The translations under genes and the position numbers were made by a program. Shown here one piece after another: positions 1 through 51,600 of a DNA stretch of 64,000 nt. Within the stretch, counting starts at the first letter, position 1. Every line of letters starts with the position of its first letter. The DNA comes from Eledone cirrhosa (lineage: Eukaryota): assembly GCA_964016885.1 (NCBI GenBank), contig OZ024746.1, positions 45,074,001-45,138,000 of the forward strand. Direction: 5' to 3'. The notes beneath the pieces are model-generated. The model searched no databases. It was not told the origin of the DNA and saw only the letters and a program-made list of their open reading frames with translations.

Positions 1-463
1 AAATTTAATTTCATTCGCAACATAAATTTAACGTTCCAATCTTCGGTTCACACATTAGACCATACAGACACCCATTATAGATTCTTTGGGTAGCATTTTT
101 TCGCGGCATTTTCTAGCATGAATGTAGTATGACCCTTACACTACACTTCTTTCTCCATTTCTTTCTTCCTTCTCATTCTTCTTTGACGGAGTGGTGGTAG
201 TTCTTTATAAGCCTTCGCCCCCTCACCCGATATTCATTAGTAGATTCAGTTGCCAACACTCTGAGGGCGACTGGCCGAGAAGCTAGCTGGTCAGTCGCCC
301 TCTTTGTCTCTGTCTTTGATTTTTCGGACACATGGTTTTTAACATATCCCTTTTATTATATTCCAATACCTGATGATATCACCGGATTCATATGGAACCC
401 GATCATTGAGATGATCATAGTATAATAAACTTTCAACGATTTACACCAGTCCAGCCTCCATTC

Positions 464-737: not shown

Positions 738-1421
738 TTATAAATGTGTGTGTTTGTGTGTGTATGTATTCGTGAGTGAGTAATGATAATATTATACTAA
801 TATCATTAACATTCGGTTTGTTTACAAGTAAACAGCCTCATAAAACACCACGTGGTAGATGAACAACTTCATCCTTTTGTTCCACTGAGAGAAGACAATC
901 AACAATTGACAATTGTTTCGGATTACCTTGCTTCGTGTCAACATTGTATATTCTGCTTTAGATAGCCGATGTATACATTTGAGAATATTAAGTATTCTCA
1001 GCAGTTCCAGGGAGTAGCAGTTCCAGATGGACGGGATTAATTTCATCTCAATTTCACACACCGGTAATTATAATTCACAATTTCTCCTACAGAATATACT
1101 ATGCAGAGTGGAGGATACAATATTCTGTTTGGTGCATGCAAACCACTGAAGCCTTTTGTAGGATATATGGATGATGTAAGTAGCATTTCTTTGTTCGATG
1201 GGGAATTAACTGTTAGAGTGAATTGGCATCTAGATATAACACATATATATATATGTATATAATTAGTTATTGTGTGAAATACCTTGATGTAAAGTGAAGG
1301 ACAATGTCTTGATTGCAAGAAATTTGACCGTTACAAAGAATCGTATTCACCCCTGCAAATATATATATATATATATATATACGATGTTAATAAATTGAAA
1401 CTATATTTATAAAACCATATT

Positions 1422-1486
1422 TACTTCATTATATATATTTCAAGGATACCAAGTTACATTATGGTATGCCTTCATCAGACAAAATA
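1422..1486 (-). ncRNA. Candidate type-I hammerhead ribozyme in a short TA-flanked insert
   Basis: Minus strand: tattttgt-CTGATGA-aggcatacca(loop)tggtatcctt-GAAA-tatata-TA-atgaagta; stem I pairs with G-U wobbles, short palindromic stem III. Confidence 0.6.
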
Positions 1487-1564
1487 CAATATATAACAGT
1501 TTTATAAATAGACATTGACGTACCCCTTTTAAAAATTGACCCTTGATTTTGGAGGCCATCAGGA

Positions 1565-2678
<1,114 letters not shown>

Positions 2679-2794
2679 TTGGTCGAACACTGGAAGGTAA
2701 TATCCGTAGTGGTAGACCACTCAGTCCACGGGACGAGTTAGGTAGAAGTGGTTACACTACAGATAGTTCACCATACCTAACTGTTGTGTAACCA

Positions 2795-2843
<49 letters not shown>

Positions 2844-4223
2844 TCACATAAACACATACAATACACTCACATAAACACACACAATTACATATATATAAAT
2901 CGATTAGGCCCAAATATGACAAATTAAAGACATAACTCACAACTATGCTATAGATAGCTAAACATAACTATGTGATATTTATTTTCCAGATATCTCTCTA
3001 CACATGTATTCCAACCGAAACTAAAGGAACGAAGAAACAAACAAACTGACGTATGAAAATAAGAGATAACTTACGATATATGTTATCTTAAATATAATCT
3101 GCTCATAAAAGCATTATAATAATCGCATGTAATATCTGTTCTGTGCACCACAATAGAAGCTTATAGATGTTATAACGCCAAAGTTGTAAGTGTTGAGTTA
3201 GCTTAAGGCAAAGATCATCAGACTGCTTTATGCTATTTAATATTGTATCTCTAGGTACTCAGTTCAAATCATTTCTTGACCTTTATTATTCATCTAATAT
3301 AGTTCAAACAAATGTATACCTGTAATATATTGCAGTTATCATAGACAACCGCAACCATCCTCTGTGAAATAAATAATGCCAATTATATGTTGCTGCGACT
3401 GTTCTTTTTAAAGTATTACTACTACAGTCACTACTGCACTGAATATACTTTTACATGCCAATCACACATTGTATTGTTGTTGTTAATAATGATGATGCTA
3501 TCTTTATAAGTTTGATTATAGTCAAATAAATCGATAATATTTTAACACTCATGCGTATTTTCCCAACATTCCAAAGGATATGAATTCATAATCTAATACC
3601 TGGAATGTATTTCATCATGATCGGCACTCTCATCTATAAAAGCAAGAATATCTCACCTCTAAGCCAGCAACATTAATTCTCATAGATGGGAACTATAATT
3701 CTCTCAAACATTCTATTCTCGATGGGAAACTGGAATTCATTCAGACACTGTATTCTATATGCATTGAGACGAAATCCATCCTCAATCAATAAACTCTCCG
3801 TGATGGAACTATTCAATATATGACCTATTTCCGTTGTGCATCCTCTATCCATCTCTTCTGTTTTCTGAATATCTACCGCGAGATGTGCACTTCATAATTT
3901 TCCGAACTAATCTGAAAACTCATCCTTTAACGATAATTAAAAATGTCATTCTTCTTCAGATAGAACAATAACCAATGTTAGTTTTGGCATTTATAAATCT
4001 CAAATTATTACTTTGAGTGATTAAAGGAAAATACCTTTATTTTAAATATTTCATTCTTCTCTCGCTTTACCTTCTGCCACATTTTGTGCACGCGTTTTGT
4101 TTATGAGCTGAATCCATATATATATATATATATATATATGCAAAGGTTGTATATAATTTTGGGGGATTCAACAAGCTTAAAAATGTTATAACTGAATAAA
4201 GCACTCAACAGTATACAATATAT

Positions 4224-4330
4224 ACAATATATTAATAAATGGAAACTATATTTATAAAACCATATTTATTTTATTATATATATTTCAAGGGCAACCAAGG
4301 CAAATTGTTTTATAAATAAATATTGACATA
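4224..4330 (-). repeat. Second, internally deleted copy of the 1381-1520 insert
   Basis: Shares ttaataaat-gaaactatatttataaaaccatattta...tatatatatttcaagg and ttttataaata; the CTGATGA half is missing. Confidence 0.7.
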
Positions 4331-5679: not shown

Positions 5680-7742
5680 AAAAGTTGAGTTTAAACGATG
5701 TTTGCAGGAACTGAATAAATTATTTCGCAAATTAATAGAGTTCTTACTTTTTAGTATAAAGAATATTTCTTTGGCACAAAGGGAGCAATTTTAGGATATG
5801 AAGGAGCTTTGGAAATAATTTTCCAAATTAGGAACATTTATGGTTATTAAAACGAGATTTGAAGTCTGTTGAAGTAGAGCCGACATAGTTAAAGGAGTTT
5901 TCATTTGTTTTGACATTACAATTGTATACTATATTTTTAACTAAACAATTATTATTTAGAGGACAGTTAGATTTATTTCTACAATTACATTTATCTAAAT
6001 TTATATTATTGGGAGCCGTAACATTATATTGGATATTGCTAGGGGTATTAATGCTATTCTGGTTAGGTTTTAAGTTTCTATTATTAATTCTATTAATAGT
6101 TTGCGCTAAATTCATAATGGTGGAATATGAGAGTTTAATAGTAAGTCTATTAAATATTGAGTAATACCTGTGTGTCCTAGGAAAGCACCTATCTAGAGCT
6201 TTAAAGAATAATTTAGCAATAGGAGTTTTAATACTTAATGAGAAAAGGGAGGCGAACCATAATATATTTCTAGTTCTATTTTTTCTTTTGGTTTTCAAGT
6301 TAGTGTAAGGTTTTCTATTATAATTATATTTATAGTTATGGTAAGTTGGCACATCCTTATTATCAATGTATTTAATTTTATTACTATAGCCTGCTCTACC
6401 TAACGCTTCGTTATAATATTGTGCCTTATCTTCAAATATATTTTTATTAGCTGAAATTCTAGAAATACGTTGCTGCACAGAATTTACGATAGTGTTTTTA
6501 ACGGATCTGGGGTGATTGAAATTAAAGTTAACATAGTTTAAATTCTCATTTATTTTATGAAATGGATAATAAAGACCAGTGTTAAGTTTAAAGTTACATC
6601 TAAAAAATTAACTATTTTATAATTATTCTCTACTTCTACTTTAAGATTAACGCTTTTAGAAAGTTGTATAATTTCTTTTCTTTTCCTATTTATTTCACAA
6701 TTATCATTATTTTCACTACGTAATAGCTTATCGTCACGATATAAACCACCCGTCATCTCAGTTAATTGCGCCGAGTCCGATGATCCCATAGTGATATCGA
6801 AATTGTTATCTCTGTCTGCTCTAGTCCAAAGGTGGTTGCTAAATTTAATTAATGTTTTACGTGCAGTTAAGATAATGTGCATTTCATTGCTAGTTAAATA
6901 TGTATATTTAAATGCATATGTAAGGGCTTTATTAACTAGATTAGGAGTGATAGATGAGTAATAATTAGCAATATCCAATTGAATAAATTTATTGTTATGC
7001 TTATATTTAATGTACTTAAACCAGTCGATAACTTCATTAGTCCCATTCCATAATTTTAAATAAGATATTTCCTTAAGTTGTGGTATGATTCTATCTAAAA
7101 TATTCTTGCTAAATATGCCAAGGTCCGATTTAGATGATGCAATCAATCTAACTGGTGATTCAATTTCAAAATGTCTTTTATGGTCCTTAAGATTATTTTT
7201 TGGTTTCCTAGGTATGAAGAGTTGAGTCCTATTTTCGATGCCTAATTCCTGCATTATATAAGAAGCTTCAGTATTTAGTTTTTCAAGGTCATCATTGGCT
7301 GCTCTTTTGTAATTCTTCCTTAATTCCTTCAATATAAGATCATTGTAATTATCCTTTTGCATTCCGTAAAGATTGTTGGTTTTATGTTATTTAACAAGAA
7401 TTTTTTTCCGTTTTTTTCAAAGCTTCCTATATTATTTTTGAGACTGTTTAGGTAACCCTGGCCTACAAAGTGGTTTTTCTTAAATTTAATGCTTTGTATG
7501 ATACAGATAATCTCATTTTCAAATTCCATTAATAGTTTGTTGGAAGGTGGATTCTTTTTGGATTTGAAGATTCTATCAAGATTGGAAATATTTTCTTTCG
7601 CATCAGATTTATCGAAATGAAAATCACGCCATCTTAGTCTTCTTATAAATGAGTCCGAATTTTCTATAAGTTGTTTTAGAAAGTCCTTATTCCTAGGTAA
7701 AGCTATGTCTTTGAGAGAAGAAGAGATCTTAAAGAATTCCAT
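5680..7742 (-). pseudogene. Penelope-like element ORF (RT + GIY-YIG endonuclease), frameshifted and deleted
   Basis: ORFs 7329-7742, 6550-7362 and 5828-6478: SLKDIALP, FIRRLRWR, DIANYYSSI, FDITMGSSDSAQ, GLYRDD, FLDVTLNL, CNCRNKSNCPLNNNC, IVYNC..YVGST..FKSRFNNH; C-terminal CSLC..CKHR near 5700-5785. Motifs resemble Naiad/Neptune-type PLEs. Confidence 0.9.
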
Positions 7743-7891
7743 TTTTAATCAGTTATAATTTAAAGCGCTCAACAATAAAGGAGCAAAACAAATGTTTAAG
7801 CTTGTTGAATCCCAACAAATTAAATATAACCTCTGCATATATATATATATGTTTTGCGAGGTTTTTTATATGAAATCGTATGTCGAAACAA

Positions 7892-8220
7892 ATATTGTTG
7901 TACTTGGGGAGGGTCATACTGTTGTAAAAATATTGCCAGAAATAATAACAGAACACACTAACTGTTTGGTTGGTTTTCGCTTCTGTATATCTTTTATACC
8001 TCCACAGTTAATTCATTCGTTCCTCAATATTTACCATTGACTGACTAACGGTCAAAAATACAGATATAATATAGATATAAACACATATATATAGTCTAAC
8101 AAAGTTCTTTTGTTGCACATCTGCAACATCATCAGTGGTACTATTATTTTCCTCCTGTTGTATTGTATATCTACGCCATTTTTATTTTATCTATTTATTT
8201 ACTTTTGTCTTCTTCTCTGC
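7892..8220 (-). repeat. ~320-bp hammerhead-bearing repeat, copy 1 (pLTR-like), upstream of the PLE ORF
   Basis: Direct repeat of 8995-9312; minus strand CTGATGA-t-gttgca(gatg)tgcaac-aaaa at 8091-8144. Confidence 0.65.
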
Positions 8221-8344
8221 GGGGGTAACCACAGTAAGTAAGGTACTCAATACATAGCAGAGTATAAATGTTTAATATAGAAAAGCTTCTACGGGTCTAG
8301 AAATGATTTCTCACGAATGAAACAGTTCTAATCCTGTAGAAGCT

Positions 8345-8399
<55 letters not shown>

Positions 8400-8408
<9 letters not shown>

Positions 8409-8830
8409 TAAAAAAATAATGAATAAAACAATGAAACAGTTCCTTATATTAAACAAAAAAAGTTCATTATTTAACGATCGTTTCTAGGATATATATGTGT
8501 TAGAATTGGCATGCATATTCAACAGATCTATGTACAAAATTATACAAAATTATACAAACTATCAAGATTAAATATACATACCAAACACACATATATGCCG
8601 TCTTCAGAAATAATCATTATTTCTGAAGACGGCATATATGTGTGTTTGGTATGTATATTTAATCTTGATAGTTTGTATAATTTTGTATAATTTTGTACAT
8701 AGATCTGTTGAATATGCATGCCAATTCTAACACATATATATCCTAGAAACGATCGTTAAATAATGAACTTTTTTTGTTTAATATAAGGAACTGTTTCATT
8801 GTTTTATTCATTATTTTTTTAATATTTTAT
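8400..8830. repeat. 431-bp palindrome (215-bp arms, 1-nt centre at 8615)
   Basis: 8400-8614 reads as the reverse complement of 8616-8830. Confidence 0.95.
8615..8765 (+). ncRNA. Candidate type-I hammerhead ribozyme with long stem II (mirrored on - at 8465-8615)
   Basis: cattattt-CTGAAGA-cggcatatatgtgt...acacatatatatccta-GAAAC-gatc-GTT-aaataatg; 8-bp perfect stem I. Confidence 0.7.
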
Positions 8831-8959
8831 CTTGACTCTGTATTCCGTTTATCTTTCACCGAAAGTGATTTTTCATTGCATCTCTTCTTTCCATGATATC
8901 CGGACTACATTGAGTTCTTCATACGGATTGGACACTACCGTAAACTCTTGGTAGATTTA

Positions 8960-8994
<35 letters not shown>

Positions 8995-9004
<10 letters not shown>

Positions 9005-9312
9005 ACTTGGGGAGGGTCATATTTTTGTAATAATATTGTCAGAAATAATAACATAACACACTCACTATTTGGTTGGTTTTCGCTTCTGTATATCTTTTAT
9101 ATCTCCACAGTTAATTCATTCCGTCCTCAATGTTTACCATTGACTGACCAACGGTAAAAAAAACAGATATAATATAGATATAAACACATATATAGAGCCT
9201 AACAAAGTTATTTCGTTCCACATCTGCAACATCATCAGTGGTACTATTATGTTCCGCCTGTTGTATTGTATATCTATGCCATTTTTATTTTATCTTTTGT
9301 CTTCTTCTTTGT
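8995..9312 (-). repeat. Hammerhead-bearing repeat, copy 2, followed by an inverted partial copy (9313-9390)
   Basis: Repeat of 7892-8220; minus strand CTGATGA-t-gttgca(gatg)tggaac-GAAA at 9192-9247; 9313-9390 is the reverse complement of 8143-8220. Confidence 0.7.
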
Positions 9313-11004
9313 GCAGAGAAGAAGACAAAAGTAAATAAATAGATAAAATAAAAATGGCGTAGATATACAATACAACAGGAGGAAAATAATTGTATTGTAT
9401 GTGTATGTATGTATGCTTGTATGTATATATTAGGTACGTACGTATGTTGGTGTGTGTGTGTGTTTAACGAATCTTTATGTTTAGAATTCATTCTATATCG
9501 GACCTATCTACGTTATACACCCAAGAAATTGCAATGAAATTCGGACTATATATGCATGAACAGACCTAGAAAAATATTTAAAATATTTTCTCATCGTAGG
9601 TTTTCTAAATTCTATTATCTGAAGTTTATTGACTCAACGCATCATATTCTTCACATCTTCCTTGAGTCGGAAATGAGATTATTGTATTCAGAATATTAAG
9701 GTAAACTGGAGTTGAAGAGGAACCCCCATGACATGATATTCGCAGAGAGATGCAAATATGAAATAATAATCATTAAGTAATGTTTCGTACATTGCTGAAA
9801 TATGAAAGTTAGATGCTTCTTAAAATGCGAGCTTCGATCAAGTATACGCTTTTGCAAAATCTGTCTAAGAAACCAGACATTGATAAAACCAGTTGCTTGT
9901 ACAACGATAGGTGGGTTGATGATTTAACTTGCTTTTCAAAAGAGGACAATTTAGCAAAGGCTAATTAGGTTACGATAAATTTAGACACGGTTTGCATTAA
10001 CGGATAAGGCAATCCGTCGATTGTATAGAATAATGCTGATTGGCGATAATATACCTTTAGAGAGTGATATACTTAGCAATTGACACTTGCATAAAAATGT
10101 GTCAACAATATAATTGTCTAATGATATAGTTATCATAGAGTTAATCTATTGAATATATCGATGGCATGGAATTTATATATCGAATATATTGATACATTGA
10201 TATAATTGTCTATCAATATATAGTTTATCAAATGTATGTAGTACGTAAATGATGTAAAGAAAACATAAATACAGTTTGATATTGATATTTAGCCTACGCT
10301 ATAGGTAGGTGAGAATATATAATAGCCAGTGATAAAGTTATCTGGCATTTAGATAACAAAGGATATACACATTATGTGCTGGACGTAATCATTATATATT
10401 TATCTAGTGCTATATTGGTTTTCTCGTTATATTTAACCGGAAACATTCTAAAATCAAATCCAATATCTATAAATATGAAAATCAATTTGGTAAATTAATT
10501 TCATAATAATTTATTACCAAAACCTTTATTACATTATACAGACGAATACTTCGGTAGGAATAATCTCTTTTTGTTTTAATGGTTACAACTATTTATTCTT
10601 ATATATGTTTTAACCTATGGATTGCAACCAGCTGGGGCATCACCAACAAAATTTGGAATATTTTGCCAGTATTTAATTCAAATCAAAATATTATTTGTAC
10701 TAATTTTATAGACAACTTAGAAACTATCATTGATGATCTAAAAATAGGTTATTAACCATGTGGAAACATCGAGAAAATAATCCAGTACGTCTCAACATAG
10801 GAGTGATAGGGAACGGCTTTCGCCTGACATGCAGCTTTGGTACCACAAAAACACAGCTTCAGCACACTGGTACTAAAGAAGCACAGTTCTACACCGATAT
10901 ACCAAAACCTATATATATAGTCTCACACACACACATTCACCGCTACACACATATATATATGAAATGTATAGAGTTTTAACGTACCAAGTTCTCTTCACAT
11001 GTAC

Positions 11005-11090
11005 AATATACTTCTTTTGCCAAACGTTTTCGACTGTGGAATCGAATTCAAAGCTATGTGACTGCAAAGAAATCATCTTAACCACATAGT
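11005..11090 (-). mobile_element. Degenerate tRNA-derived SINE head
   Basis: Minus strand tgtggttaag (A-box-like) and gaattcgattcc (B-box-like) with tRNA-like spacing. Confidence 0.35.
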
Positions 11091-14000
11091 TCTGTTGTTT
11101 TCTTTAATTCAGTGCCAATATGTATAATGATTTTCCGATTTACGTTTCCACTTTTGTGATTCAACGCATAAATAAAGGTGCTGTATCAGAGCACTGCCTA
11201 CCTTCAGCAACAGTAGCTAAATGCAAAATATATGGATGATTGTATGTTTTTCAGTATATTACCTAAGAGTCTGAATGTGATAAATAACGATTATATTTTA
11301 TATATATCATACACGATGTTTGAATATACATAGAAACCCACATTACAATCATAGAGGATATTTTATATTGAGCAAATACTTTTTCATAATCCATATTAAA
11401 GGAATGTTCCCTGTGCCGACTCAATTACAACCGACTCAATTTCACCGAGTTATTCGATTCAATATCAAGTAGCACTATATAGTGATAGCATATGTTATTC
11501 AGAAGTATGAGTTCAAACTAAATTAATATAAGGGAAATATAAGATCAGGGAGATGCATAGTTAGTCTCGGTGACGCAGTTTCACATCGTGCTTCGAAATC
11601 TCTTAGCAATAAAAACATCTGGGGAGAGTATTAATCAGAGCTGTCTACAGATGCTTTCTATTAAATATCGTTTGCAATAAAATTGTTGGCTCTTTTGTCA
11701 TTAATTTGACCTCATCTTCTTTGCATTCATATAAATCAAACTATCCTATCGGAAATCGAAACCATATGAAAACATTCTGTGAGAAATTATAAACTGCCCC
11801 AACGCAATTGCCATATTGAAATAGACTAAAATAGTATCTGCATAACCAAGCGCTGTCTTTTCGATAAATTAGAGTTACTAAACACAGTTGATTTTATTGC
11901 CGATTCTATTAGAAACTAATATTATGCTTTGTCTTAGCATGTTCGTTTTATGGGAATCTATCACTCGACGTTGGATAATATTCCTATTCAAATAATGTCT
12001 ATCACATGCATTTATAAACTATAACACAAGCTAACATTTCTCATCTGTGTGCATATAGGTGCGTCAGACTTTTACGTTAGTAGGGTAGTGTACAGACAAT
12101 AGAATATATTTAGGATTTTGTATCTTTTCCTAGTTTAGACATGATTCTGTTTAAGGTAGTGGGAAGGGACGTGGGAAGAGGGGTGGAAGGTACCCTTAAA
12201 TACGAAACCTGAACCGAATGCTTTCAACAGAGTAAACTCAGTTAATGTCATTAAATCAACATATGGTGTCTTCTACACGTTGTTGCAGAGTGGATATTTT
12301 GTTTCAATCTTACTTAATACCTACGAAGGATGAGGCAGGAAAGTGTGTTTAATATTTCTGTAATAAAATATTGTAACAAATGGAAACAATGTGAAAGTGA
12401 CTTTAGAATTCTAAATGGAATTCTAAAGCTTATCATTGTTAAAAGAACCACCCATGCTATGTTCTTAAGAGTCATTCTCATTTCAGTATTACATAAATTG
12501 TATTATTTATTACAATAGAATTATACATTTCCCTAATGACTGATAGTCATAGTTTTTGCAGCCCCTCAGCATTTAAATCAGATAAAGTAGTTTGATTCAA
12601 TGCAAAGAAGCATACCAGACAAGAGATTTCAACATTATGAAAATTATTTCTTAATCTCCATGCCTCTCTTGAAGCGGATGCATACAATGTAGCAATATAT
12701 ATAAAGAAATGTTGGCTAGAAATCAAATTGTGATAGTGAACTTACATTGCTTATGGCAACAAACCTATTGAATTATGTAAACTCCACAAATATTTGAAAT
12801 CTAAAATTCCCAATAGAATGCAAAAGCTTGAAGTAATTTGGTTTTCCTTCAGTTTTTGTTTTTATTTATCAGGCATAATCTGTTATATTCATAGATAATT
12901 TTATTTTCATCTCACCATATTGTATTGATTGGTAGGCTATTGGTTTTAAAATGCTAGACACAGTAATTATATTCGTGTTCAGTACAAAGTAAATATATAT
13001 TTTCGAGCATTTTATATTGTGGATCATAATCCATAAAAAGAACTATACTCTATATGGAATATATATTTACTGATATATAAAACCAACATGTTTTTAAAAT
13101 GAAAGTAATACTTTTAGTTCGATATGTTCAATTTATCAGTCAATAGTAATTAAATGTAAACGTCATCTATACTCACCTCAACATAATGCTGTTGATAATA
13201 ATTTTAACCCACCAGCATAAAATCGGTGGCACCATTATTTGGGATAAGTAACGAAATATATCCATTGTAAAATATGTTTTCTCTACGAAATGTCTTAAGT
13301 GCAAATAACATTGTCAAAAGGAGCATTCTCAAACTGATAAGTCTTTGATTGCTTCTTATCTGCCTACACATATGCGTTACACTTGCTCTCATGCATGTTA
13401 TCGATCCGGAAGGTCATATCTGGAACGGTTTCGTTTATTCATCAGTGTGATCAAAGAATAAATGCTATTGCGACATTCCTATATTTCATCCAAGGAATTT
13501 ATTTTCAATTTTGATCGCAAATATTGCATTCATATGCATCCTTTTAGTGTCGATGTATCAACTCGTAATATGACATTTCACCATTTTCGCATCAAGCTGA
13601 AGTGGACGACTCTAAGCAATCACTCCATTTTACAGGAATAACAACCATATTTCACTTCAAACTAAATAATTCAACCTTTAAAAAAGGGAAAAAAGATTAT
13701 GTACCTTCCGATATGTTATGCTTTAAAATGAGATGGAATAATCATGTCATTGATCATAATTATGCACGATCAGACCTTAACTCGGCCTAAACAACAACAT
13801 CTATTCTGGATGACTAAACAACACTTTTGTAAATAACACAATTACATGATTATAAGAAGCGCGTATAAATACAAGTATTCTCACCTACTATTATAAAATG
13901 TCTGATTATAATTAGTTGTAATCAAAACACGTAATGCATTAAACATGAGTACAGTCGTTGTACATTAACGTCCAACATAATTTAAACACAGCTTTGTAAA

Positions 14001-14460
14001 GAATATGCATAATTGATCGACTGATTAAAGTAAACTATTCTCTTTATATATTATTTCTAGATTAATGATACATCTCTACTCCTCATTTTTAATCTTACTA
14101 ATTCCATTGATCCCCCAACATCATAGTCTAGCTGATTTGAGTTTGTACTCCAGCTGCTCTATTTTCCTTTCTTCGTATCTTTACACTAAAGCATATTTGG
14201 AAGGCGATGTCTAACTAAAACTACAGAAAATAAATCTAATAACTCCACAAACTAGATCTGTTTTAGATAGCGCTGGAAAACACCTTCACTAAATACAGAT
14301 CTAAACATTTTATTGCTGATGTGGTTTTGTTTGTTCTCTTTCCCGTTTCTTTTTTTTCTGTCGTGTCTTGGCAACAGTCATTGAAGTGTTTATAGAGTAA
14401 TCTAAAGTTGGGTACATTGGAAACTATAATAGTTTGTAACAAAACAAGGAAATGTTAGGA

Positions 14461-14682
14461 ATAATTGTTTCTTATATAGGCACAAGGCCAGCAACTATCG
14501 GGCAGGGAAGTATCGATTAAATCGACCCCAGTGCGTGACCGGTACTTTATTTTATCGACCCCGTAAGGATGAAAGGCAAAGTTAACCTCGGCGGGATTTG
14601 AACTCAGATCATAAACGACCGTAACTCTATGCTGCAAAGCATGGCATCCGGCCCTCTACCGATACTGCCAATCCACCGCCTT
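14461..14682 (-). mobile_element. tRNA-derived SINE, near full length
   Basis: Minus strand A box tggcagtatcggtag, B box gagttcaaatccc, core gcctttcatccttacggggtcgataaaat; homologous to 48717-48891 and 16913-16985. Confidence 0.85.
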
Positions 14683-16624
14683 AGGACTATTGCTAATAAT
14701 TCAACACAATGTTTATAAAATCCTAACGGTCCCTTACAATTAAAAATATTAATGATTGTCACCTTTAAAGGCACTTTCATTATTCATATTTTAACGATAT
14801 ATATGGTATCAATCTTTTGCCATTTTACAGCACTGTAAATATTACAGGCAAAACAACTGAACGTATCTAAATAAATGTTATATGGCATAAGAAATATGAT
14901 GATATTATATTCCAAATGTGAATATATTTTATTCCAAATCTATGGACAATTAAACTAAAAAGCTCTCCTGATTTCAGATAATGAAAACAAAATTGAGTTA
15001 ACAAATAACACCATTATATGATATAAAACTGACTTCACACTGTCTGCACATTCGTCGATGCATTTTGTTACACCTATTTCTAAATGCACCTGAGATAACA
15101 TAATTATTTCAAATAAAGATTAATAGTCGCAGAATAATGCTCGTAACAGAAGTTAGAATTAGATATTCTGTGACAAATTATTGTAGGAAAATTGTATCTG
15201 TACACGAACTACAATGAAGCATGTAGTTTTGAAATGTTTATCTGAAACCTATTTCCCCTGTGAAGGGAAATGTTATTGCTTTGCAATCTTATATTTGGGT
15301 ATCTGGTAACCCTCATTGGTTGAAGTAATTATAAGACAAAATCGGTTGATAAGAGGGATATTTAGATTTAGAGAGAGGAAGCAGGCGAAAAAGTGAACAA
15401 TTACTGATAAGAATAGTGTGAGTTTCAAAAAGAAAACTTAACTGAAAGGAATCAGATAAAAATGTAATTTAAGTAAAGATTACATTGAATAAATGGAACA
15501 AGTTGAGCAGAGAATGGCATTAAAATTCGCAACTTTTCCGAAAAGTAAAGACATAAATCGTTTTTAAGAAAATGAGAAAGAAATTATTTCATTATTTAAG
15601 AGAAGATTTTTAAAATAGCTATTGAAATATACTACTGAATAAGAATTTGTGAAAATGATCTCTACTTGCTATTCATAACGGAAGTCACTAAACATGAGAA
15701 CTAAATTGTACAGTCATGTATTTAAATAAAGGGGAAAAAAGGGTGAATACAAATTGAAAAATCTATCGTTCGGAATAAATATCCACCTATGAAAATTGAT
15801 CAATCTCTTCACACATAGGAAAAACCAATATGCTTTTCCAATAAACTTCAGTTAAGCATGAATCACAGACACACATGAAGTTATTTTATCATTTTGAGTC
15901 ATAGGATAAATAATAAACGGTTAAGTTTTATCCACTAGCCAGGATTAAATTTATATTCTGCTGAAGTTGGCCGTAAACCCCTCATTTAAATGATTGGTCA
16001 CGTGTATCAATAATTCTCGCATTCGACAAAAGTGTCTCAAATTTAAATTTGAATATCTAAGACGAGAGTGGTCTGAAAGTCGTGAATCAGAAGGAACTTT
16101 GTAAATTATATTCTTTTTTCTAATTCCCCTCAGTTCTAAAATGTGTTTAAATCATTAAATTGTGAAGATAATCTTGGTTGAATGAGGCTTTCCTTTTACC
16201 ATTCTCCTTATTCAGAGAGTGAGGGCCTATTTGTGTGTATATACGTTATACAGAACTGTCCCTCAGGTATTTTTACCTTACCCATTTTTGACACACGTTA
16301 TCTACTCACCCACATTCCTATAACTGTTGAACCTTTTTTTTCATCAAGTTGCCTTGTAGACAAGGTCATTCCTAGTACATTCTAGTTTTGTTGGTTCTAT
16401 TTTCATGTATCATTTCCCAGTAGTTATATATTTTTAGCAACAAACATAACTGGAAAAATGTAGGTATCCTGCCGTTTCTTTATCGGACTTGCAATAGTCT
16501 GTCCAGAAGGCAGCCAATGAATGGATGGCTTATGTTTGTGCATGTTTCGTTTCGTATTGTAGTCGTCGGAGTATATATGAAATTTCCTCTAAAATCACAT
16601 AATTTTATGGTTATAGATAAAAAC

Positions 16625-16900
16625 TGATACTACGATGCAGCTGATTATTGAAGGAGAGCAAATCAAATGTGTTCAGAAATTTAGATATCTTGGAGTTATG
16701 TCTGGTGGTGGTGGCATTGGGGAAAGCTGATTCCGATCGAATATAGCGAAGCAAGCATTCCTATAGAACGCTCACATCACGTACATTAACCTCGATAGCT
16801 TTCCAATATTATGTTACTCAAAGCTTAGTCGGTATTCCGATACGATTAAGGATAGAGAAAGATGGAGGAGAATTGTTGATCGCATTGAATATCAGACATG
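16625..16900 (+). mobile_element. RTE-like LINE remnant
   Basis: Translates to QLIIEGEQIKCVQKFRYLG (RT thumb-side YLG motif) and, further on, DRERWRRIV (typical RTE C-terminus). Confidence 0.6.
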
Positions 16901-16912
16901 ATGGGGCATGAT

Positions 16913-16985
16913 AATCCCGTCGAGGTTAACTTTGCCTTTCATCCTTACGGGGTCGATAAAATACAGTACAGTAATGTACTGGGTA
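16913..16985 (+). mobile_element. SINE core fragment
   Basis: aatcccgtcgaggttaactttgcctttcatccttacggggtcgataaaat matches the 14.5-kb SINE. Confidence 0.75.
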
Positions 16986-18254
16986 TTTGCTGGCGTTGTG
17001 CCTAAAGTAGAAACAGTTATATTATATACATGTATACGTGCATACGTACATGCAAGAATCAATCCATCCAACCATCCATAAATCCATACATACATGTACT
17101 TGTATATATTTGGAACTGGGTGCCTGTGCACTAACATACACCCACATGTATATCGGTTGAGAGCCTTTGTGTGTAGATGTGTGTGTGTCCATTCGTACAT
17201 CTAGGTACATGTGCGTGCATGTATGGGAGTGCCGCTTGCGTTTGTGTGGCTGTATGTGCATGTGTTTTACATGTATCCTGAAGGATGATATTTCAAAGGG
17301 GACTCTACTGAAGTATCACCGGTGGAATAATCTGAATACGGCTGACGAAAGGGGCAGAATTAACGCGTCTCGGCAAACTCCGAATAACATGGAAGGTAAT
17401 AGACAGTTTGCCATGTATTTTATACAACATACTGTATTTACCTCTGCGATTACATTTTGAGGGCTCTTTATTTAGGGATTACTACCACACATACAGGCAA
17501 CAGTAACACACACACACATATGTATATATATATGTATGTGTGTGCGTCCTGTGTGTGTGTATGTGTGCGTCTAGATCTATGTATGTAGATGTCAGTGTAT
17601 ATGATTGCAAGTATGCATACTGATAGGATGAAATTTCTTATGCCATACTTTCCATATGAAATATGTCAACAGTCTACGTTAAACACTTAAAGTACATACG
17701 CAATCACTATTTCACTTTATGAAGATAATCATGCAATTCTTCCTCAGAATTATTACGAATTATGTATAAGAGAATTTCATCTCCCCTGTGATCTTTCTCA
17801 CACATCACTAGAAACTTAATACTTAAGCATGTTCAAAAGATTGTCATGATATTTAGTTATACCCCAAGCCGAAGGCTTTCTCTATTCATTCATATGTAAG
17901 TACTAAACTACAACGTTAAATATATTAGTCCTATTGTTGCTGATGATGTCACAGGATACACAAATGCGATAGCAATGTCTAACCTGGTAAACAAAATGTC
18001 ACATAAATCTAACTGTAAAAGAAACCTATTCGCTGTCATTCGGATTATTAGAAATAAAAGCTACATAGATACCAAATTGCCTATTTTATAACGTAGTCTC
18101 ATATTAACTTACTTATCTATGCTTGCAAACCAAATGTTTCAGTATAGATCTCTCTGGACAGAGCTGACAAGGAATTCAATAACGACAGTCGATTTTAATT
18201 GATTTTAATATTTGATTTATTAGTTATTGTATATATATATATATATATATATAA

Positions 18255-18481
18255 TTTTTTTTTTTTTTTTAAATATATATATTTATTTGGTTCCTTTACC
18301 GGTTTCGCAGTTCTTCTGCTTTTCAAAAGGTGAGTTGAGATGGAGGGTCTGTGGTTTTTCTCACATCAGATGTGAGAAAAATCACAGACCCTCCATCTCA
18401 ACTCACCTTTTGAAAAGCAGAAGAACTGCGAAACCGGTAAAGGAACCAAATAAATATATATATTTAAAAAAAAAAAAAAAA
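18255..18481. repeat. ~227-bp palindrome (centre 18368, one mismatch) containing a degenerate hammerhead
   Basis: Arms are reverse complements; 18406-18443 = cctt-TTGAAAA-gcag(aagaa)ctgc-GAAAC-cg-GTA-aagg. Confidence 0.9.
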
Positions 18482-18560
18482 AAAAGACTCCAGTTGCATT
18501 TTCGATTTCATCTCTTTTTCTTTCACTCGTGTAGGACACCTCGGTTATTTTTCATTTTGT

Positions 18561-18574
18561 AAAAAAAACCTCAC

Positions 18575-18612
<38 letters not shown>

Positions 18613-18660
18613 GTGAGGTTTTTTTTATGGTCCACCTGGTTCCTTACCACATTTCCTTCG

Positions 18661-18696
<36 letters not shown>

Positions 18697-18732
18697 CGAA
18701 GGAAATGTGGTAAGGAACCAGGTGGACCATAA
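18561..18732. repeat. Two adjacent inverted duplications, each centred on a (TA)n run
   Basis: aaaaaaaacctcactttctaa/(TA)n/ttagaaagtgaggtttttttt and ttatggtccacctggttccttaccacatttccttcgt/(TA)n/its reverse complement. Confidence 0.9.
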
Positions 18733-18776
18733 CGCACCAAAGTACTCAATACTTAGGGTAGTAGAGTGGGTAATAG

Positions 18777-18886
18777 GAACGAGTAGGACCCCGACGGCTG
18801 AGCTTAAGCCGTTTCGACGGCTACTTCTGGACTCAGAATTAGCCGTCGAAACGGCTTGAGCTCATCCGTCGGGGTCCTACTCGTTC
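18777..18886. repeat. 110-bp imperfect palindrome retaining the GAAAC half of a hammerhead
   Basis: gaacgagtaggaccccgacgg...ccgtcggggtcctactcgttc; related arm at ~19708-19745. Confidence 0.85.
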
Positions 18887-18946
<60 letters not shown>

Positions 18947-19201
18947 GAGTTAAACAATATTCAATGAGTATGTCAAAGAATGAGTTTTACAGTAGATTGG
19001 AAGCACTCTACGAAAAAATAATTTTCCGGAGTTATTAATATATATATATATTAAGGAGTTGACGGACCCATCATATTTATCAATGCCAGGACCGGTTGTA
19101 GCTCAGCGTACTCAATAGGTAATGTAGGATACATTCCCAGTAGTATACACATAGTTATTCGCTTCAATACAACACACGTAAAACGGGTGCCTATAATAGT
19201 T

Positions 19202-19295
19202 CCCGTACTCGAGTTTCGGCCACACTTAATGCAGCAGTTGGGTGCACTGCACCTTCTGTCTGCATATAATTGCCGTATGTGGCTTCATCAGCGGG
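19202..19295 (-). ncRNA. Type-I hammerhead ribozyme (PLE/retrozyme-type)
   Basis: Minus strand cccg-CTGATGA-agccaca...tgtggcc-GAAAC-tcga-GTA-cggg: complete core, stems I and II, palindromic stem III, GUA cleavage triplet. Confidence 0.8.
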
Positions 19296-19656
19296 TATCG
19301 CCTAATCAATAACCAATCGATCGACAGAATCCAAACCCCAGCCCATGCCGGCTATGACTGTTTGTGACGTCCGACACAGTAAAGTGATTAGCAACTGGAA
19401 TCCGATACAATTCTGTCTCTCACCCAGCCACCCATTTACAAACTTTACTTGGTGGCGGGAGAATAGAAAACAAATATTTTCGTTCCCGTCAAAAATCCTC
19501 AGCCAACGTGTCTCAAACACAAATTAATAAGAAGCGAAAAGATGGTTACTAGAAAGAGCAGTCCCACATCGATGTATAATAGAATGGTAGCATTCAGCTC
19601 ATGTCTCCAAGTCCCATGGCTAGAGGAAAGAGATAGTAACAATGGTAATGCCAAGA

Positions 19657-19702
<46 letters not shown>

Positions 19703-20915
19703 AAAAGGTACGACCCCGACGGCAGAGCTCAATCCGTTTCGACGACAATATATATATATACACACATATGTATGTAGTGTGAATCGAACTTTTTACCCGT
19801 ACAATCATCCCTGTTACTAATGTAAAAATAACATATGCATATTCTCCACAATATAATTTATAATCATAATTATAAATGTTTCGACAAATACGATCTGATA
19901 TATTGCGCTATTATTACACTCCGCAGCAAAATATCGATGTCACTCCACTAGTTGAATTACATGTATAATGTAGCACACGAGTAAATAGGGAAAATTAGTA
20001 TATCTAAATATTATATGGAAATATTTACTTCCATTTATCATCTTTGTTTTCTCTTCGTAGTTTATGTTAGCATTTGTTAAAACCTATTCCAAATGTTCCA
20101 CATATTAATATATCTCTTTCAAGCATAATTCTAATGTTTCAAATTGTTCTTTCTATTATACTGTGGTCTTATCTCTATTATTTACAGTTGTTTAATTTGA
20201 GTACAATGATATAATCTGATTTCATAAACTACTGAAATCTGATTTCTATATATAGTAGATCTGAGTACCATCAAAAATCTCTGATGCTTAACTTCGTTGG
20301 TCCACCAGGAAGCACTTCTTGTTATGCCAACTGACTATTTTATAGCAGTTAGCTATTTATATATATGGCGTTAACGATTTGTCGTCGTTAGGTTCTAAGA
20401 AGTAAAATCCTCCTATAAATGATTATCTCTTTTTACAGATATTTCAGTGTAATGGCCCAGAATAGATTCAATCACAAATAAATGCTTTTGTGATGAAACA
20501 AAATACAAAATTGTAGTTAATAAAAGGCAGAGCATAATTCCTTTGTCACGAAAGTTGTCAATAAAATATGTAACAGTCTTTTCAGTTCTTTTGTCTATAT
20601 CGAATATACTCATGGCTTTGAAATTTGTATTTTCCCATTTTGATTTCGATTTCCGAATATACATATATTTAATAGAAACCATTCTTTCGAGTTTTCTTTT
20701 TCTCAATTCTTTCTTTCAATTTCTTTCTTTGGTGGATTAGGTTTCTTAGAATGCAATATTTGTTTATTCGAAGTATTTACTAGGGAAATATAGAATAACG
20801 TTAGTCATACATGTCAATATATTTTATTGTTCTAGATTTATTTCTCCGCCTCATTGTCACAGTTGAGCTGTGATTGCTAGCGTAACAATAGAAGAATTTA
20901 AAGACAACATTGTTG

Positions 20916-21925: not shown

Positions 21926-22142
21926 GTTGAATGCTATGGTTGACGGAGGCTCGGCTCTGTAAGGTACAGTAATTTTTAACCGCTATAACAATTGTAAATT
22001 GTTTAAAACTTTAACCAAGTTGTAGATAAAAACACCCTCCTCCTCGTGAGATGGGTCTTTCTGCCCGTTATTTGGCCCTTCGGGGTTAAATAACCGCTTA
22101 TTCGGGTTTTGTGCCCAATATTCATTTTAAACCAAAAAAAAC

Positions 22143-24294
22143 ATGGCTACAAAAAAGAATTTTCACAAGTCACTCCCACTCATTCCGTCTTCTTCTTCCT
22201 CAATCGTCACTACATCAGAGAGAAGATTGTCTCTCTCCCTCCCTTCTCTAAATGTGTCTCTCTCCCTCGCGTCTCTTTCGCAAGCGACGCCAGTAAAGAA
22301 AAAGAAAAATATAGTTTCTGATAGTTTCCTCGCGCACGTGCAAACCGAGGAACATTTCTCCACGACGACGACAACGACGAATAATGTGTGCGGTAAATAC
22401 GGAAACCCATTTCATTCGTCTGACGTCATGAATAATAGCAGTAGCTGCCGTAATAACAGCAGCAGCAGCAACAGTGACAAGGAAAACAATAGTAGCAGCC
22501 GCAACAGCAGCAGCAGCAGCATAAACAACAACAGCATTAGCAGCAACAACAACAGCAGCAGCAGCAACAACAACAACCACAGCAACAGCGGTAGCGGCAG
22601 TGGTAGTACCAGTAGCAACAACAAAAGTAACAGCAGCTCTGACGACAACAATAACGACAAGAAAGAAAAACCAATCTCGTTTGCAGGTATCGCAAAGAAC
22701 CTGGAAACCATCCTTATAACAAATGAGGAATTACAGGAAGCAAAGAAGATGGTGACGAAAACCGGACACCGAGCAAACGCAAGGCAGCCGAAAAACTTTT
22801 CGAACCCAACAGCACTGTACGGTCACGTACCGTACAGTAAGCACAAAATCCCGTAGTGTTGAAAGAGCCAAAGAGGCTCAAATACAAAAAGCCTTAGGGT
22901 CTGTGTGGCAGCGGAAAACGCATATCACCCGAGGCAAGAAATATGCCACCGTAGACGTGCTTTTTGCCACACCCCAGGAGGCAAAGGCTCAATCCTTAGT
23001 GACCCTAAGGAGCGAGGAAATGGTGTTGGTGCCCTCCTACTGCGGGAAAAAACTTGTAAGGGTCATACTGACTCCCCGGGTGGGCCCTTTCTTGTCTGGG
23101 CGCGTCTGTCCTCGTCGGAATAGAGGACAAAACAACTGTACTGCAAGTACAGAAAAAGTGAGAGAAGATTGGGTCGGCACCTCCATTGAGATGTTAATCT
23201 AAACCAACCAGGAGTGCTTCGAAGCTATCACGGATGTGATAGACTTCGATAACGGCACTCAACTGCCCATAAGTGTTGAGGGCAAACGCCCGAAATGCTT
23301 TCACTGTGGATCGAAGACTCACCTCAGGGCCCTTTGCAATGAGAAGACCCTGAGAAAGGAGAAAACCCCCCTCCTTCCGAAGCCGGCTCCACTGCTACCA
23401 GCAACAGGACAAGCGGCAATCAGGAACGATAGGTCCGTGGCACCCATACCCACGCCACGGAAATCAAGAACAGCAGCAGCAGTGGAAGTATTAACAACAA
23501 CAACAGTAATACCAAATGCAGCTGCAACAGAGACTCCACTGCAAACATCACCAACAACAACAAGTGAAAGAGTGGAGCTGGTACCCCTCCCCGACCTCAC
23601 AGAACCAGACATTGGGTGTGAGGTGGGAGAGGGATGGCAAAAGGTCGCAAGAAGGCACAAACGCAGAAGCAGCACATCGTCGCCTTCGAAAAGGGAGGAA
23701 AGAAAGGAAAAAAGGTTAAAGGTTACTGCAAAGAGACTAAAAGCAGCAACACCACCAACACCATCACCACCATCGCCACCATCACTAGCACCACCATCAC
23801 CACCGGCAACAACCCCACCGCCAACAACAACAACACCGTCAACACCACCACTACAAGCACCAACATCGCAAACACAAAAAAACACACACACCCAGCAACA
23901 ACGACAAGAAAATAGCAGAACCACACCCCACTCCCAGAAAAACAAATGCACAGCAATAAATATACACAAGAAATTAATGACTTACATAATTGAACACACA
24001 GATATTTCACAGCACGACTACATAATACCAGCACCAATCAAAACACCAACGAACATAAGACTGGTAAAAATAGCACAGAAACAATACACAAACATTAAAA
24101 CGAAATTCCCCAACGCTGTTGGTGATCTCAGAGACCTAGGAGGGACACTCAACCGGAGGGTATATTCGGATATACTTACAGAAGTGCCAACGACCAGCCG
24201 AAGGGGCGATTCAACAGTCCCTTCACCAGACGACCAGCCGAAGGGGCGATTCAACAGTCCCTTCACCAGACGATCAAGTGAAAAGGGATGGTGA
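22143..24294 (+). pseudogene. ORF1 (gag-like) of A1, frameshifted
   Basis: Fragments 22143-22856, 22903-23202 and 23236-24294; Ser/Asn-rich N-terminus, RRM-like RGKKYATVDVLF segment, CX2CX4HX4C, Pro/Thr-rich tail. Confidence 0.8.
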
Positions 24295-24362
24295 AACCAT
24301 CCTTCCTCTGCGAGAAGAAGTAAGGTAAGTGGTCTTCACCATCTTTTCCACTCTATTTCAAC

Positions 24363-27300: not shown

Positions 27301-27740
27301 ATGGAGGTGCCGTCAGCCGGGCATGTCCGAGATGCGCGCAGGGCGACGAAACCGTCCTGCACGCACTCGTCCAGTGTCCGAAAATTGCTGACTTGTGGGT
27401 TTATGTCGAACACCTGCTGTCGCGTTTAGGACGGATCCAGCTATCATCTGAGTCTATCGTGAGGATTGCCCCGCCCTCCTCCTTTAGCCGGGAAGGGCAG
27501 GCAGTTTTTATCTGTCTGGTGGCCATGGCGAAAGAGATAGTATGGTGGACACGTTTGAAAGGGCTGAAGACGAGCACTTACCTCTTCGGTGATGCTCTGA
27601 TTGACTTTTTCAAATTTCATTTGAAAAGGAAAATCAGAGTAGAGAAGGAAGTGCTCTCTTCCCAGCATTTTGTTGAAAGATGGGTGAGAGAAGCAAGAAT
27701 GGCCCGAGTGAATGGGCCGACTCTGAGTATATATCTGTAA
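24363..27740 (+). pseudogene. ORF2 of A1: APE endonuclease + reverse transcriptase + C-terminal zinc finger; 5' half broken, 25743-27740 open
   Basis: MTSLRIGSINARG, GDWN, YLDR, TDH (APE); FRPITLLN, DQSKAFDRVDH, QGCPLS, YADD (RT). Confidence 0.92.
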
Positions 27741-28001
27741 ACTAAAGGTGGAAAACTGGGAGAGGGCACTTGCCTTGGTGGTCAGGGTCATTGTGGCTTT
27801 TTACTGGGCTTTCTCCACAAATGTCCCTCCGAAGTCTCCCCCCTATTGGGGAATTTTTCATTGTTATTTTCATTGTTATTTTTGTTACATCCTCTATTTT
27901 TGTTTTTTTTACACGCAGAAATGCCCATTTGTACCGTCCTGCATTGTCCTGCACTGTCCTTAATGTCTACTTTATGTAAACCCTTGTGGTTAATAAAGAA
28001 A

Positions 28002-28042
<41 letters not shown>

Positions 28043-28259
28043 GTTGAATGCTATGGTTGACGGAGGCTCGGCTCTGTAAGGTACAGTAATTTTTAACCGC
28101 TATAACAATTGTAAATTGTTTAAAACTTTAACCAAGTTGTAGATAAAAACACCCTCCTCCTCGTGAGATGGGTCTTTCTGCCCGTTATTTGGCCCTTCGG
28201 GGTTAAATAACCGCTTATTCGGGTTTTGTGCCCAATATTCATTTTAAACCAAAAAAAAC

Positions 28260-50250: not shown

Positions 50251-50302
50251 TCTTCTTCTTCTTCTTGTCATTATTATTATAATTGTTATTATTATTATTG
50301 TT

Positions 50303-51561: not shown

Positions 51562-51600
51562 ATTATTATTATTATTATTATTGTTATTATTATTATTACT

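What the first reader, a model, noticed from the sequence alone, without database searches (positions are those of the whole stretch)
8400..8830. Hammerhead-bearing inserts in (TA)n repeatedly fold back on the 5' side of the ribozyme
Seen: in the 431-bp palindrome the axis (8615) is the first base of hammerhead stem I. At 18255-18481 the axis lies ~38 nt 5' of the hammerhead. At 9246-9390 it lies ~65 nt 5' of the minus-strand hammerhead. At 18777-18886 it sits inside what looks like stem II, with only GAAAC surviving. At 8279-8347 the arms extend a putative stem I. Known: Penelope-like elements carry hammerheads in pLTRs and often have inverted 5'-truncated pLTRs. Inference: truncated cDNA snaps back, sometimes through the ribozyme's own stems, and self-primes second-strand synthesis.
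Basis: partly seen in the sequence, partly recalled or inferred. Interest (0 to 1): 0.7.

Follow-up and report, generated by a model that had tools for sequence, protein, structure and literature searches.

The report
Fold-back stubs of Penelope-like retroelements
The hairpin-shaped inserts and most of their hammerhead ribozyme motifs are in the sequence, but they are likely the ordinary short fold-back leftovers of Penelope-like jumping genes landing in TA repeats, with the ribozyme probably a passenger rather than the hinge.

Summary
All five listed inverted repeats exist, plus two missed ones centred on (TA)n; 8 perfect arms of 14 bp or more versus 0 in 40 shuffles. Whole hammerheads sit in 8400-8830 and 18255-18481; the other three are partial or decayed; Rfam finds none. 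The three clean cases share one plan: a long copy with a 3' tail, a short inverted copy without it, both 3' ends on (TA)n, a 1-4 nt loop. That is the published insertion unit of Penelope-like elements (PLEs), self-priming included (PMC3846280, PMC8557442). A broken Hydra-clade PLE lies 650 bp away. 'Axis 5' of the ribozyme' follows largely from copying that starts 3' of it. Snap-back through stem I would leave the hammerhead as the loop; 8400-8830 instead duplicates it around a 1-nt loop. Four hammerhead-bearing inserts have no fold-back. One hint survives: 8615 and one foreign Hydra locus (L002) both end exactly at stem I's 5' edge. Reads show very abundant families but no visible row for the 8615 junction, so it stays unconfirmed. 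The scan reported such stubs before on other DNA. Ordinary; interest 0.25.

The parts
5828..7748 (-). Broken Penelope-like ORF (RT, linker, GIY-YIG start) in three frames; Hydra-clade marks RW[KR], (D)KT, CxCX5C
   Evidence: definition in PMC8557442 section 11
4126..4290 (-). 3' half of a hammerhead, TTGAGTGCT motif and long 3' end on (TA)n; same family as the 1380-1563 unit; its last ~50 nt recur inverted at 7792-7850
7892..8220 (-). Repeat copy 1 with decayed hammerhead (core intact, G12 changed, stem I poor); no fold-back
8279..8349 (.). Old fold-back, 21 of 24 bp; loop holds the rest of a decayed hammerhead whose first core bases are replaced by the arm
   Evidence: loose ends of other copies at 8303 end in CCTG at 0.5 agreement
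8350..8402 (.). (CT)n(TA)n left flank
8400..8614 (-). Short inverted copy (no tail), second hammerhead core at 8607
8615..8765 (+). Type I hammerhead: stem I 8615-8622/8758-8765, CUGAAGA 8623-8629, 116-nt stem II 8630-8745, GAAA 8746, palindromic stem III, U17 at 8757; axis base 8615
   Evidence: not found by Rfam or by the Hydra model
8616..8830 (+). Long copy, part mirrored by the short copy
   Evidence: contig of another organism label identical over 8727-8830
8831..8957 (+). 3' extension (tail) present on the long copy only, ending at (TA)20
   Evidence: contig 8801-8947, 1 difference, depth 43 in run X1 bridges 8830
8995..9312 (-). Repeat copy 2 (92% to copy 1), decayed hammerhead core at 9238
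9313..9394 (+). 82-nt inverted piece matching copy 1 (81 of 82), stops before the hammerhead
18255..18481 (.). Fold-back, 112 of 113 bp, axis 18368; U3-A8 hammerhead on each arm (core 18410+, 18326-)
   Evidence: E 0.078; variant described in PMC4209133
18482..18580 (+). Tail of the long copy, ending at (TA)13
18607..18661 (.). Two stubs (21 and 37 nt), each a perfect inverted copy of the tail end across the adjacent (TA)n, overlapping by TTA at 18625-18627
18696..18833 (-). Long copy: 3' half of a hammerhead (GAAAC, stem III, GUC at 18793), TTGAGTACT motif at 18748, tail ending at (TA)17; supplies the 4-nt loop
18834..18886 (+). Short inverted copy ending at the proximal 3' end, then (TA)28
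19037..19660 (-). TA-flanked insert with a complete hammerhead (19199-19298, 67-nt stem II) and no fold-back; control case
   Evidence: (E 1.8e-4)
19698..19744 (-). Solo third copy of the 18777 family, same proximal 3' end, no fold-back; control case
1380..1563 (-). TA-flanked insert with a complete hammerhead (core 1478), no fold-back; control case

Best explanation
These are short, TA-flanked inverted duplications of hammerhead-bearing repeat ends, likely made when a Penelope-like element's enzyme nicked a (TA)n tract, began reverse transcription 3' of the ribozyme, stopped early and probably turned back on its own new strand, with the ribozyme likely carried as a passenger. Shown: long copy with tail plus short inverted copy without tail, both 3' ends on (TA)n, 1-4 nt loops, two discrete 3' ends per family, hammerhead motifs, a Hydra-clade ORF nearby. 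Inferred: the tailed copy is the first strand (the loop bases belong to it at 8615 and probably at 18830-18833); the U-turn needs little or no pre-existing pairing; the copy-back is resolved at the element's inner 3' end and joined to the other (TA)n end. The axes sit near ribozymes mainly because the ribozyme fills most of the last 50-250 nt of the element. The (TA)n-centred stub pair at 18607-18661 is likely a separate, later event: a break in a TA tract between two tails, snap-back of both ends, and joining through 3 shared bases.
For: Three of three clean palindromes show the long-with-tail / short-without-tail plan; for 8400-8830 a multi-copy contig bridges 8830 into the tail. This is the unit drawn in PMC8557442 and PMC3846280, the latter reading junction palindromes as self-priming; two RT start sites define the tail and ribozyme cleavage is not needed for insertion in vitro (PMC11167929). 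The solo copy 19698-19744 ends at the same inner site as the short arm 18834-18886. Loops are 1, 1 and 4 nt although up to 60 was allowed. Hydra ORF at 5828-7748. A WGAGYRCW motif follows 38 of 53 distinct Hydra hammerheads within 250 nt (1 of 48 upstream) and follows the 18777 and 4250 half-hammerheads. Summed contig depth is about 10^5-10^6 on these families against about 15 on unique DNA, and falls from 524k at 8802 to 88k at 8645, giving a crude 0.8 chance that a copy reaching GAAA stops inside the ribozyme. Fold-backs or inverted joints far from any hammerhead occur in Hydra loci L045, L053, L025 and L037/L059/L063. Arms at 18777 differ at 3 of 53 sites, two of them where one arm alone departs from the family majority (18805, 18865), which a read chimera would not give.
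Against: No read row shows the 8615 junction (tables cut, 1079 joints hidden), and its arms are 100% identical. No parent element for any palindrome family was recovered (empty; no genome), so the sequence 5' of each axis is unknown and small priming stems cannot be excluded. The nearby ORF is not shown to be the mobiliser. The motif tie to Hydra is exact for only 2 units; the 8400 tail has a 1-mismatch version and the 18255 tail none (and direct reading). 9246-9394 does not fit the plan. 8615 and L002 both end exactly at stem I's edge and L016 6 nt before it; the chance for 8615 alone is about 0.05 under the crude model.
Confidence: 0.6

Rival explanations
1. Same PLE reaction, but the 5' edge of the ribozyme (stem I, or an RNA 5' end just before it) is a preferred stopping and turning point, so axes are programmed.
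For: 8615 is the first retained base of stem I. In Hydra locus L002 the upstream copy begins exactly at the first base of stem I, joined to an inverted tail; in L016 it begins 6 nt before stem I: 2 of 11 usable 5' junctions (14 rows, 3 dropped as not pLTR junctions: L008, L019, L036). The two copies 7892-8220 and 8995-9312 begin at about the same base. Multi-copy joints land at 18834 and 18843.
Against: Other axes lie at -42, -75, inside the core, inside stem II or in (TA)n; 9 of 11 foreign junctions lie elsewhere (+124, +43, -165, 550-1670 nt up in the ORF, one with no hammerhead hit). No axis is at a cleavage site. The read joints have sides of only 22-24 nt, were laid at 88% likeness, and land where the reference copy starts, so they are biased.
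Confidence: 0.17
2. Two cDNAs are primed at nicks on opposite strands, one from each RT start site, and are joined head to head; no U-turn.
For: Both outer ends are the element's own 3' ends. The anole PLE protein cuts and extends both strands (PMC11167929). Asymmetric inverted joints exist in L002, L025, L037/L059/L063. The 9313-9394 arm comes from a different template than its neighbour.
Against: Independent stops would rarely agree within 1, 1 and 4 nt when copy lengths scatter over about 85 nt.
Confidence: 0.1
3. The palindromes, at least 8400-8830 and the (TA)n-centred pair, are library chimeras or assembly errors.
For: 215 of 215, 21 of 21 and 37 of 37 identity; no contig or read row displayed spans these axes; (TA)n can self-prime during amplification (own knowledge).
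Against: A simple fold-back chimera would mirror the tail and the right flank too; here the mirror stops at 8400 and enters a different flank. Three other palindromes have diverged arms. Unique stretches nearby match short-read contigs with 0-3 differences. The plan matches published PLE units.
Confidence: 0.08
4. Host replication or repair template switches made the inverted arms after ordinary PLE fragments had inserted.
For: Fits the stub pair 18607-18661 well (snap-back at TA primers, joining by short microhomology: PMC5728401 passages; TA tracts break and are repaired by MMEJ: PMC13645644 passages) and perhaps 9313-9394.
Against: Does not explain why short arms end at the element's own inner 3' end on (TA)n, a site shared with a solo copy.
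Confidence: 0.05

Closest known systems
Insertion unit of endonuclease-bearing Penelope-like elements (Arkhipova et al. 2013, PMC3846280; Craig et al. 2021, PMC8557442)
   Same: 5'-truncated copy with an adjacent inverted 5'-truncated copy, head to head, palindrome at the joint, tail on one end only; self-priming proposed in print.
   Different: Here only the element ends remain, arms are symmetric to within 1-4 nt, tails are 80-127 nt rather than 30-40, and no target duplication can be read inside (TA)n.
Hydra clade of PLEs (PMC8557442 section 11)
   Same: (TA)n targets, type I hammerheads, ORF marks at 5828-7748, shared downstream motif in two units.
   Different: The palindrome families are not shown to belong to that ORF; stem II is 67 and 116 nt in two window units against at most about 25 nt in descriptor hits on the + strand of 76 fetched Hydra loci.
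Minimal hammerheads of PLEs (Cervera and de la Pena 2014, PMC4209133)
   Same: Type I, palindromic stem III, extra base before stem II, U3-A8 variant, pairs on opposite strands 100-700 bp apart ascribed to truncated PLEs.
   Different: Much longer stem II in two units; the parts read do not discuss axis position.
Snap-back synthesis-dependent end joining (PMC5728401)
   Same: Inverted templated insertion primed at TA/AT, closed by short microhomology, as at 18607-18661.
   Different: Here both ends snapped back and the copies are 21 and 37 nt; the enzyme is unknown.
Non-LTR retrozymes (bioRxiv 10.64898/2026.07.22.740005)
   Same: Short non-coding hammerhead repeats derived from PLE ends.
   Different: No head-to-tail tandem array here; units are inverted or solo.

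Membership tests
PLE insertion unit | Inverted 5'-truncated copy joined at the 5' end, 3' ends outward | tested here: met
   3 of 5 listed palindromes clearly (8400, 18255, 18777); 8279 partly; 9246 not
PLE insertion unit | 3' tail on one end only | tested here: met
   127, about 99 and about 80 nt; 8831-8947 continuous with the arm in a multi-copy contig. Longer than the published 30-40 bp
PLE insertion unit | Type I hammerhead in the terminal repeat | tested here: met
   Descriptor 5 hits versus 0 in 40 shuffles; model hits 19199, 1423, 18290, 18403; no Rfam hit; cleavage not tested
PLE insertion unit | Repeat is the terminal repeat of an RT plus GIY-YIG ORF | tested here: inconclusive
   A PLE ORF lies nearby but no palindrome family is continuous with it; parents not recovered
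PLE insertion unit | Target-site duplication | not testable with these tools
   Both ends lie in (TA)n; no empty allele available
Hydra clade (ORF 5828-7748) | RWK-type and DKT motifs, CxCX5C linker, C-terminal GIY-YIG | tested here: met
   RRLRWR, KTNN after a frameshift (DKT in relatives), CNCRNKSNC, YVGST
Hydra clade (ORF 5828-7748) | No CCHH motif in the endonuclease | tested here: inconclusive
   Not seen in the part read or in relatives, but the frame stops inside the domain; no tree was built
Hydra clade (palindrome families) | (TA)n insertion and Hydra-type terminal repeat | tested here: inconclusive
   (TA)n flanks met; motif exact in the 18777 and 4250 units, near matches at 19108, 8243 and in the 8400 tail, none in the 18255 tail
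Non-LTR retrozyme | Head-to-tail tandem units each with a hammerhead | tested here: not met
   No such array
   0 of 4 decidable cases (8400, 18255, 8279, 9246); 18777 undecided

The most novel reading that the evidence does not exclude
The 5' edge of hammerhead stem I is a built-in stop-and-turn signal for PLE reverse transcriptase, so the ribozyme's fold, not its cleavage, sets the 5' boundary of many insertions; this genome, with tens of thousands of TA-anchored copies and hammerheads with 67-116 nt stem II hairpins, would be the place to prove it.
Probability: 0.17. Interest if true: 0.55.

Novelty: new member of a known kind. Interest (0 to 1): 0.25.

Why it matters
As it stands it adds uncatalogued-looking families to a known pattern. 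Its value is as material: how PLEs form their inverted 5' junctions is still open (PMC8557442 calls for it; PMC11167929 leaves second-strand steps unvalidated), and a genome with this many short copies would let one histogram of axes decide between random U-turn, two-primer joining and a ribozyme-set stop. It also shows (TA)n tracts collecting chains of inverted repeats (four palindromes in 630 bp).

Tried and rejected
No whole genome is held, so the genome-wide axis plot could not be made. Rfam on the window at E up to 1 gave 85 rows, none a hammerhead; mostly miRNA models matching any hairpin; two hammerhead sub-regions at E up to 10 gave none. Pfam did not recognise the three PLE frames; homology did. 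Exact-pattern scans for parent copies found nothing: 8400 family in metagenome contigs, 18777 family in viral and prokaryote contigs; Hydra protein scan of viral contigs none. Reads: 4 of 8 listed runs laid once on 7700-19800 at 88% likeness; repeat copies swamped the tables, so no axis was seen either way; runs X1 and X2 hold only 0.13 and 0.06 of the words and no habitat or organism is drawn from them. In 76 Hydra loci only 4 had a local palindrome; short-read contigs collapse such structures, so the low count is not evidence. The antisense control for the downstream motif (29 of 53) is not independent because the motif is nearly self-complementary. I first read 18733-18776 as sequence upstream of the 18834 copy; rejected, because it continues the left arm as its 3' tail to (TA)17 and carries the downstream motif. 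MITE origin rejected: no short terminal inverted repeat, asymmetric tails, hammerheads. Searches of earlier findings by place, by sequence and a second word set were empty. Paper searches listed no study of axis position relative to hammerheads; the library lacks most subscription papers.

Full report
Observation. The window is animal DNA, 38.5% GC, rich in microsatellites and LINEs. The focal palindrome is exact: 8400-8614 pairs with 8616-8830 at 215 of 215 bases around one C. The other four listed repeats exist, and two more, 18560-18627 and 18625-18732, have their axis inside (TA)n. Eight perfect arms of 14 bp or more were found against none in 40 shuffles, with the TA array 1551-2700 left out.

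Ribozymes. A type I hammerhead descriptor gives five hits, none in 40 shuffles: both arms of 8400-8830 (8-bp stem I, CUGAAGA, a 116-nt stem II with 6 G-U among 44 predicted pairs, GAAA, palindromic stem III, GUU site), both arms of 18255-18481 (U3-A8 core, a variant described in PMC4209133, parts 1-2 of 4 read), and a solo one at 1478. A covariance model built from 23 Hydra-clade hammerheads (98% of cells paired) hits 59 of 76 fetched loci, 23 of them training loci. In the window it adds a complete hammerhead at 19199-19298 (E 1.8e-4), scores 1423-1485 and the 18255 pair weakly (E 0.07-0.08), and misses 8623, 9238, 8303 and 18834. Rfam matched none. So two of the five listed cases carry whole hammerheads; three carry partial or decayed ones. 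No cleavage was tested.

Anatomy. The three clean palindromes share one plan. One arm continues past the mirror as a 3' extension to a (TA)n tract: 8831-8957, 18482-18580 and, on the minus strand, 18776-18696. The other arm stops short and meets (TA)n directly. For the focal case a contig from a run with another organism label covers 8801-8947 with one difference at depth 43, so the extension belongs to the repeat. A solo copy at 19698-19744 ends at the same inner site as the short arm 18834-18886, and the 1478 and 4250 units likewise show a short and a long 3' end. Loops are 1, 1 and 4 nt. The 9246-9394 case differs: its inverted piece matches the copy at 8139-8220 at 81 of 82 bases, better than its own neighbour, and stops before the ribozyme.

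Origin. A broken RT-GIY-YIG frame at 7748-5828 has relatives of about 700 aa (178 at E up to 0.001) and the RW[KR], KT and CxCX5C marks of the Hydra clade, which inserts in (TA)n and carries hammerheads (PMC8557442 section 11). In 76 Hydra loci from metagenomes, 38 of 53 distinct hammerheads with enough flank are followed within 250 nt by WGAGYRCW, against 1 of 48 upstream (73 of 77 model hits used, 4 cut-off ones dropped). The motif stands exactly at 18748, 4207 and 7771 on the minus strand, among 20 matches in the window, with near versions at 19108 and 8243. This ties the 18777 family to Hydra-like elements; the tie is weaker for 8400 and absent for 18255. Summed contig depth is 10^5-10^6 on these repeats against about 15 on unique DNA; it is no copy number, but the families are clearly very abundant.

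Does the ribozyme set the axis? First, direction is forced: reverse transcription starts 3' of the ribozyme (PMC11167929, parts 1-2 of 4 read), so a recognisable hammerhead implies a stop in or 5' of it. Depth falls six- to seven-fold from 8802 to 8645; taken crudely as an exponential, about 0.8 of copies that reach GAAA would stop inside this ribozyme. Second, priming through stem I predicts the ribozyme as loop with an intact core. The focal case has a 1-nt loop and two ribozymes; at 8279-8349 the arm overwrites the first core bases; at 18255 the axis is 38 nt away. At 18777 the parent's stem II is unknown, so it stays open. Third, four hammerhead-bearing inserts have no fold-back, two axes lie in (TA)n, and Hydra loci L045, L053, L025 and L037/L059/L063 (probably one event, 98-100% alike) have fold-backs or inverted joints away from the hammerhead; these loci were chosen by their ORF, the mirror-image bias. 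Fourth, ribozyme mutants still insert in vitro. Against my reading: 8615 is exactly at stem I's edge (about 0.05 by the crude model), L002 is too, and L016 is 6 nt before it, 2 of 11 usable foreign junctions. That keeps a stop-site effect alive at modest odds.

The TA-centred pair. Between the tails of the 18255 and 18777 units lie two stubs of 21 and 37 nt, each a perfect inverted copy of the tail end across the neighbouring TA tract, overlapping by TTA. The simplest account, inferred, is a break in one TA tract, snap-back of both ends and joining by microhomology, as in synthesis-dependent end joining (PMC5728401 passages; TA fragility in PMC13645644 passages). No ribozyme is involved.

Real or artefact? 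The read tables were cut and show no row for any axis, so the focal junction is unverified. Indirectly it looks real: the mirror ends where the repeat meets (TA)n and enters a different flank instead of mirroring the tail; the 18777 arms differ at 3 of 53 sites, two where one arm alone departs from the family majority; unique DNA nearby matches short-read contigs with 0-3 differences.

Comparison with print. PMC3846280 (passages) describes inverted truncated terminal repeats with junction palindromes and a one-sided tail and reads them as self-priming; it argues for an antisense template, whereas the U-turn on nascent cDNA given here is an inference. PMC8557442 (passages and section 11) gives the same unit. 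PMC4209133 notes opposite-strand hammerhead pairs 100-700 bp apart. PMC6765202 and PMC13282606 (passages) and the retrozyme preprint (part 1 of 5) add context only. Searches listed no test of axis position against the ribozyme. Two earlier notes of this scan describe the same kind of stub in other genomes.

Verdict. New member of a known kind; interest 0.25.

Noticed in passing
window 19199-19298 (-) and 8615-8765 (+): Two unrelated hammerheads with very long stem II hairpins (67 and 116 nt) and intact cores; descriptor hits on the + strand of 76 Hydra loci had at most about 25 nt.
   Followed up: partly
window 18255-18886: Four palindromes back to back in 630 bp, two head-to-head and two centred on (TA)n.
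   Followed up: yes
L001-L076, 44-67 nt after the hammerhead in most: A conserved TTGAGCACT-like motif in Hydra-clade terminal repeats (38 of 53 versus 1 of 48 upstream); a candidate protein-binding or RT-start signal. Not seen in the passages of PMC8557442 that I read; its supplements were not checked.
   Followed up: partly
L002:711-904: Hydra element with a 48-nt inverted tail joined to a copy that starts at the first base of hammerhead stem I, two extra bases making an 8-nt palindrome at the joint.
   Followed up: partly
L045:1-160: Chained fold-backs (55- and 41-bp arms) at the 5' end of a Hydra ORF, 2 kb from its hammerhead.
   Followed up: partly
window 20800-46100 and 50270-51565: Tandem and inverted array of LINEs with AP endonuclease, RT and zf-RVT domains separated by (ATT)n tracts; a 6.1-kb unit is duplicated almost exactly (22131-28247 and 28248 on). 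Tx1-like by recall.
   Followed up: no
window 1564-2679: 1.1-kb interrupted (TA)n array with GTAC, GAAG and GATG variants.
   Followed up: no
window 14460-14680, 16913-17020, 48707-48891: Very abundant SINE-like repeat (highest read depth); by recall it resembles octopus SINEs, untested. The third copy interrupts a decayed RT element.
   Followed up: no
window 2680-2797: Short insert between two (TA)n tracts with a 12-bp inverted repeat at its right end and no hammerhead core seen.
   Followed up: no
window 363-426 (+): Possible decayed hammerhead (intact CUGAUGA, E 0.63) upstream of a (TA)n tract.
   Followed up: no
window 8316, 8430: A shared 13-mer between the 8279 hairpin and the 8400 arm, suggesting related repeat ends.
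   Followed up: partly
window 62830-63444: Diverged 70/71-bp purine-rich tandem repeat, 6-7 copies.
   Followed up: no
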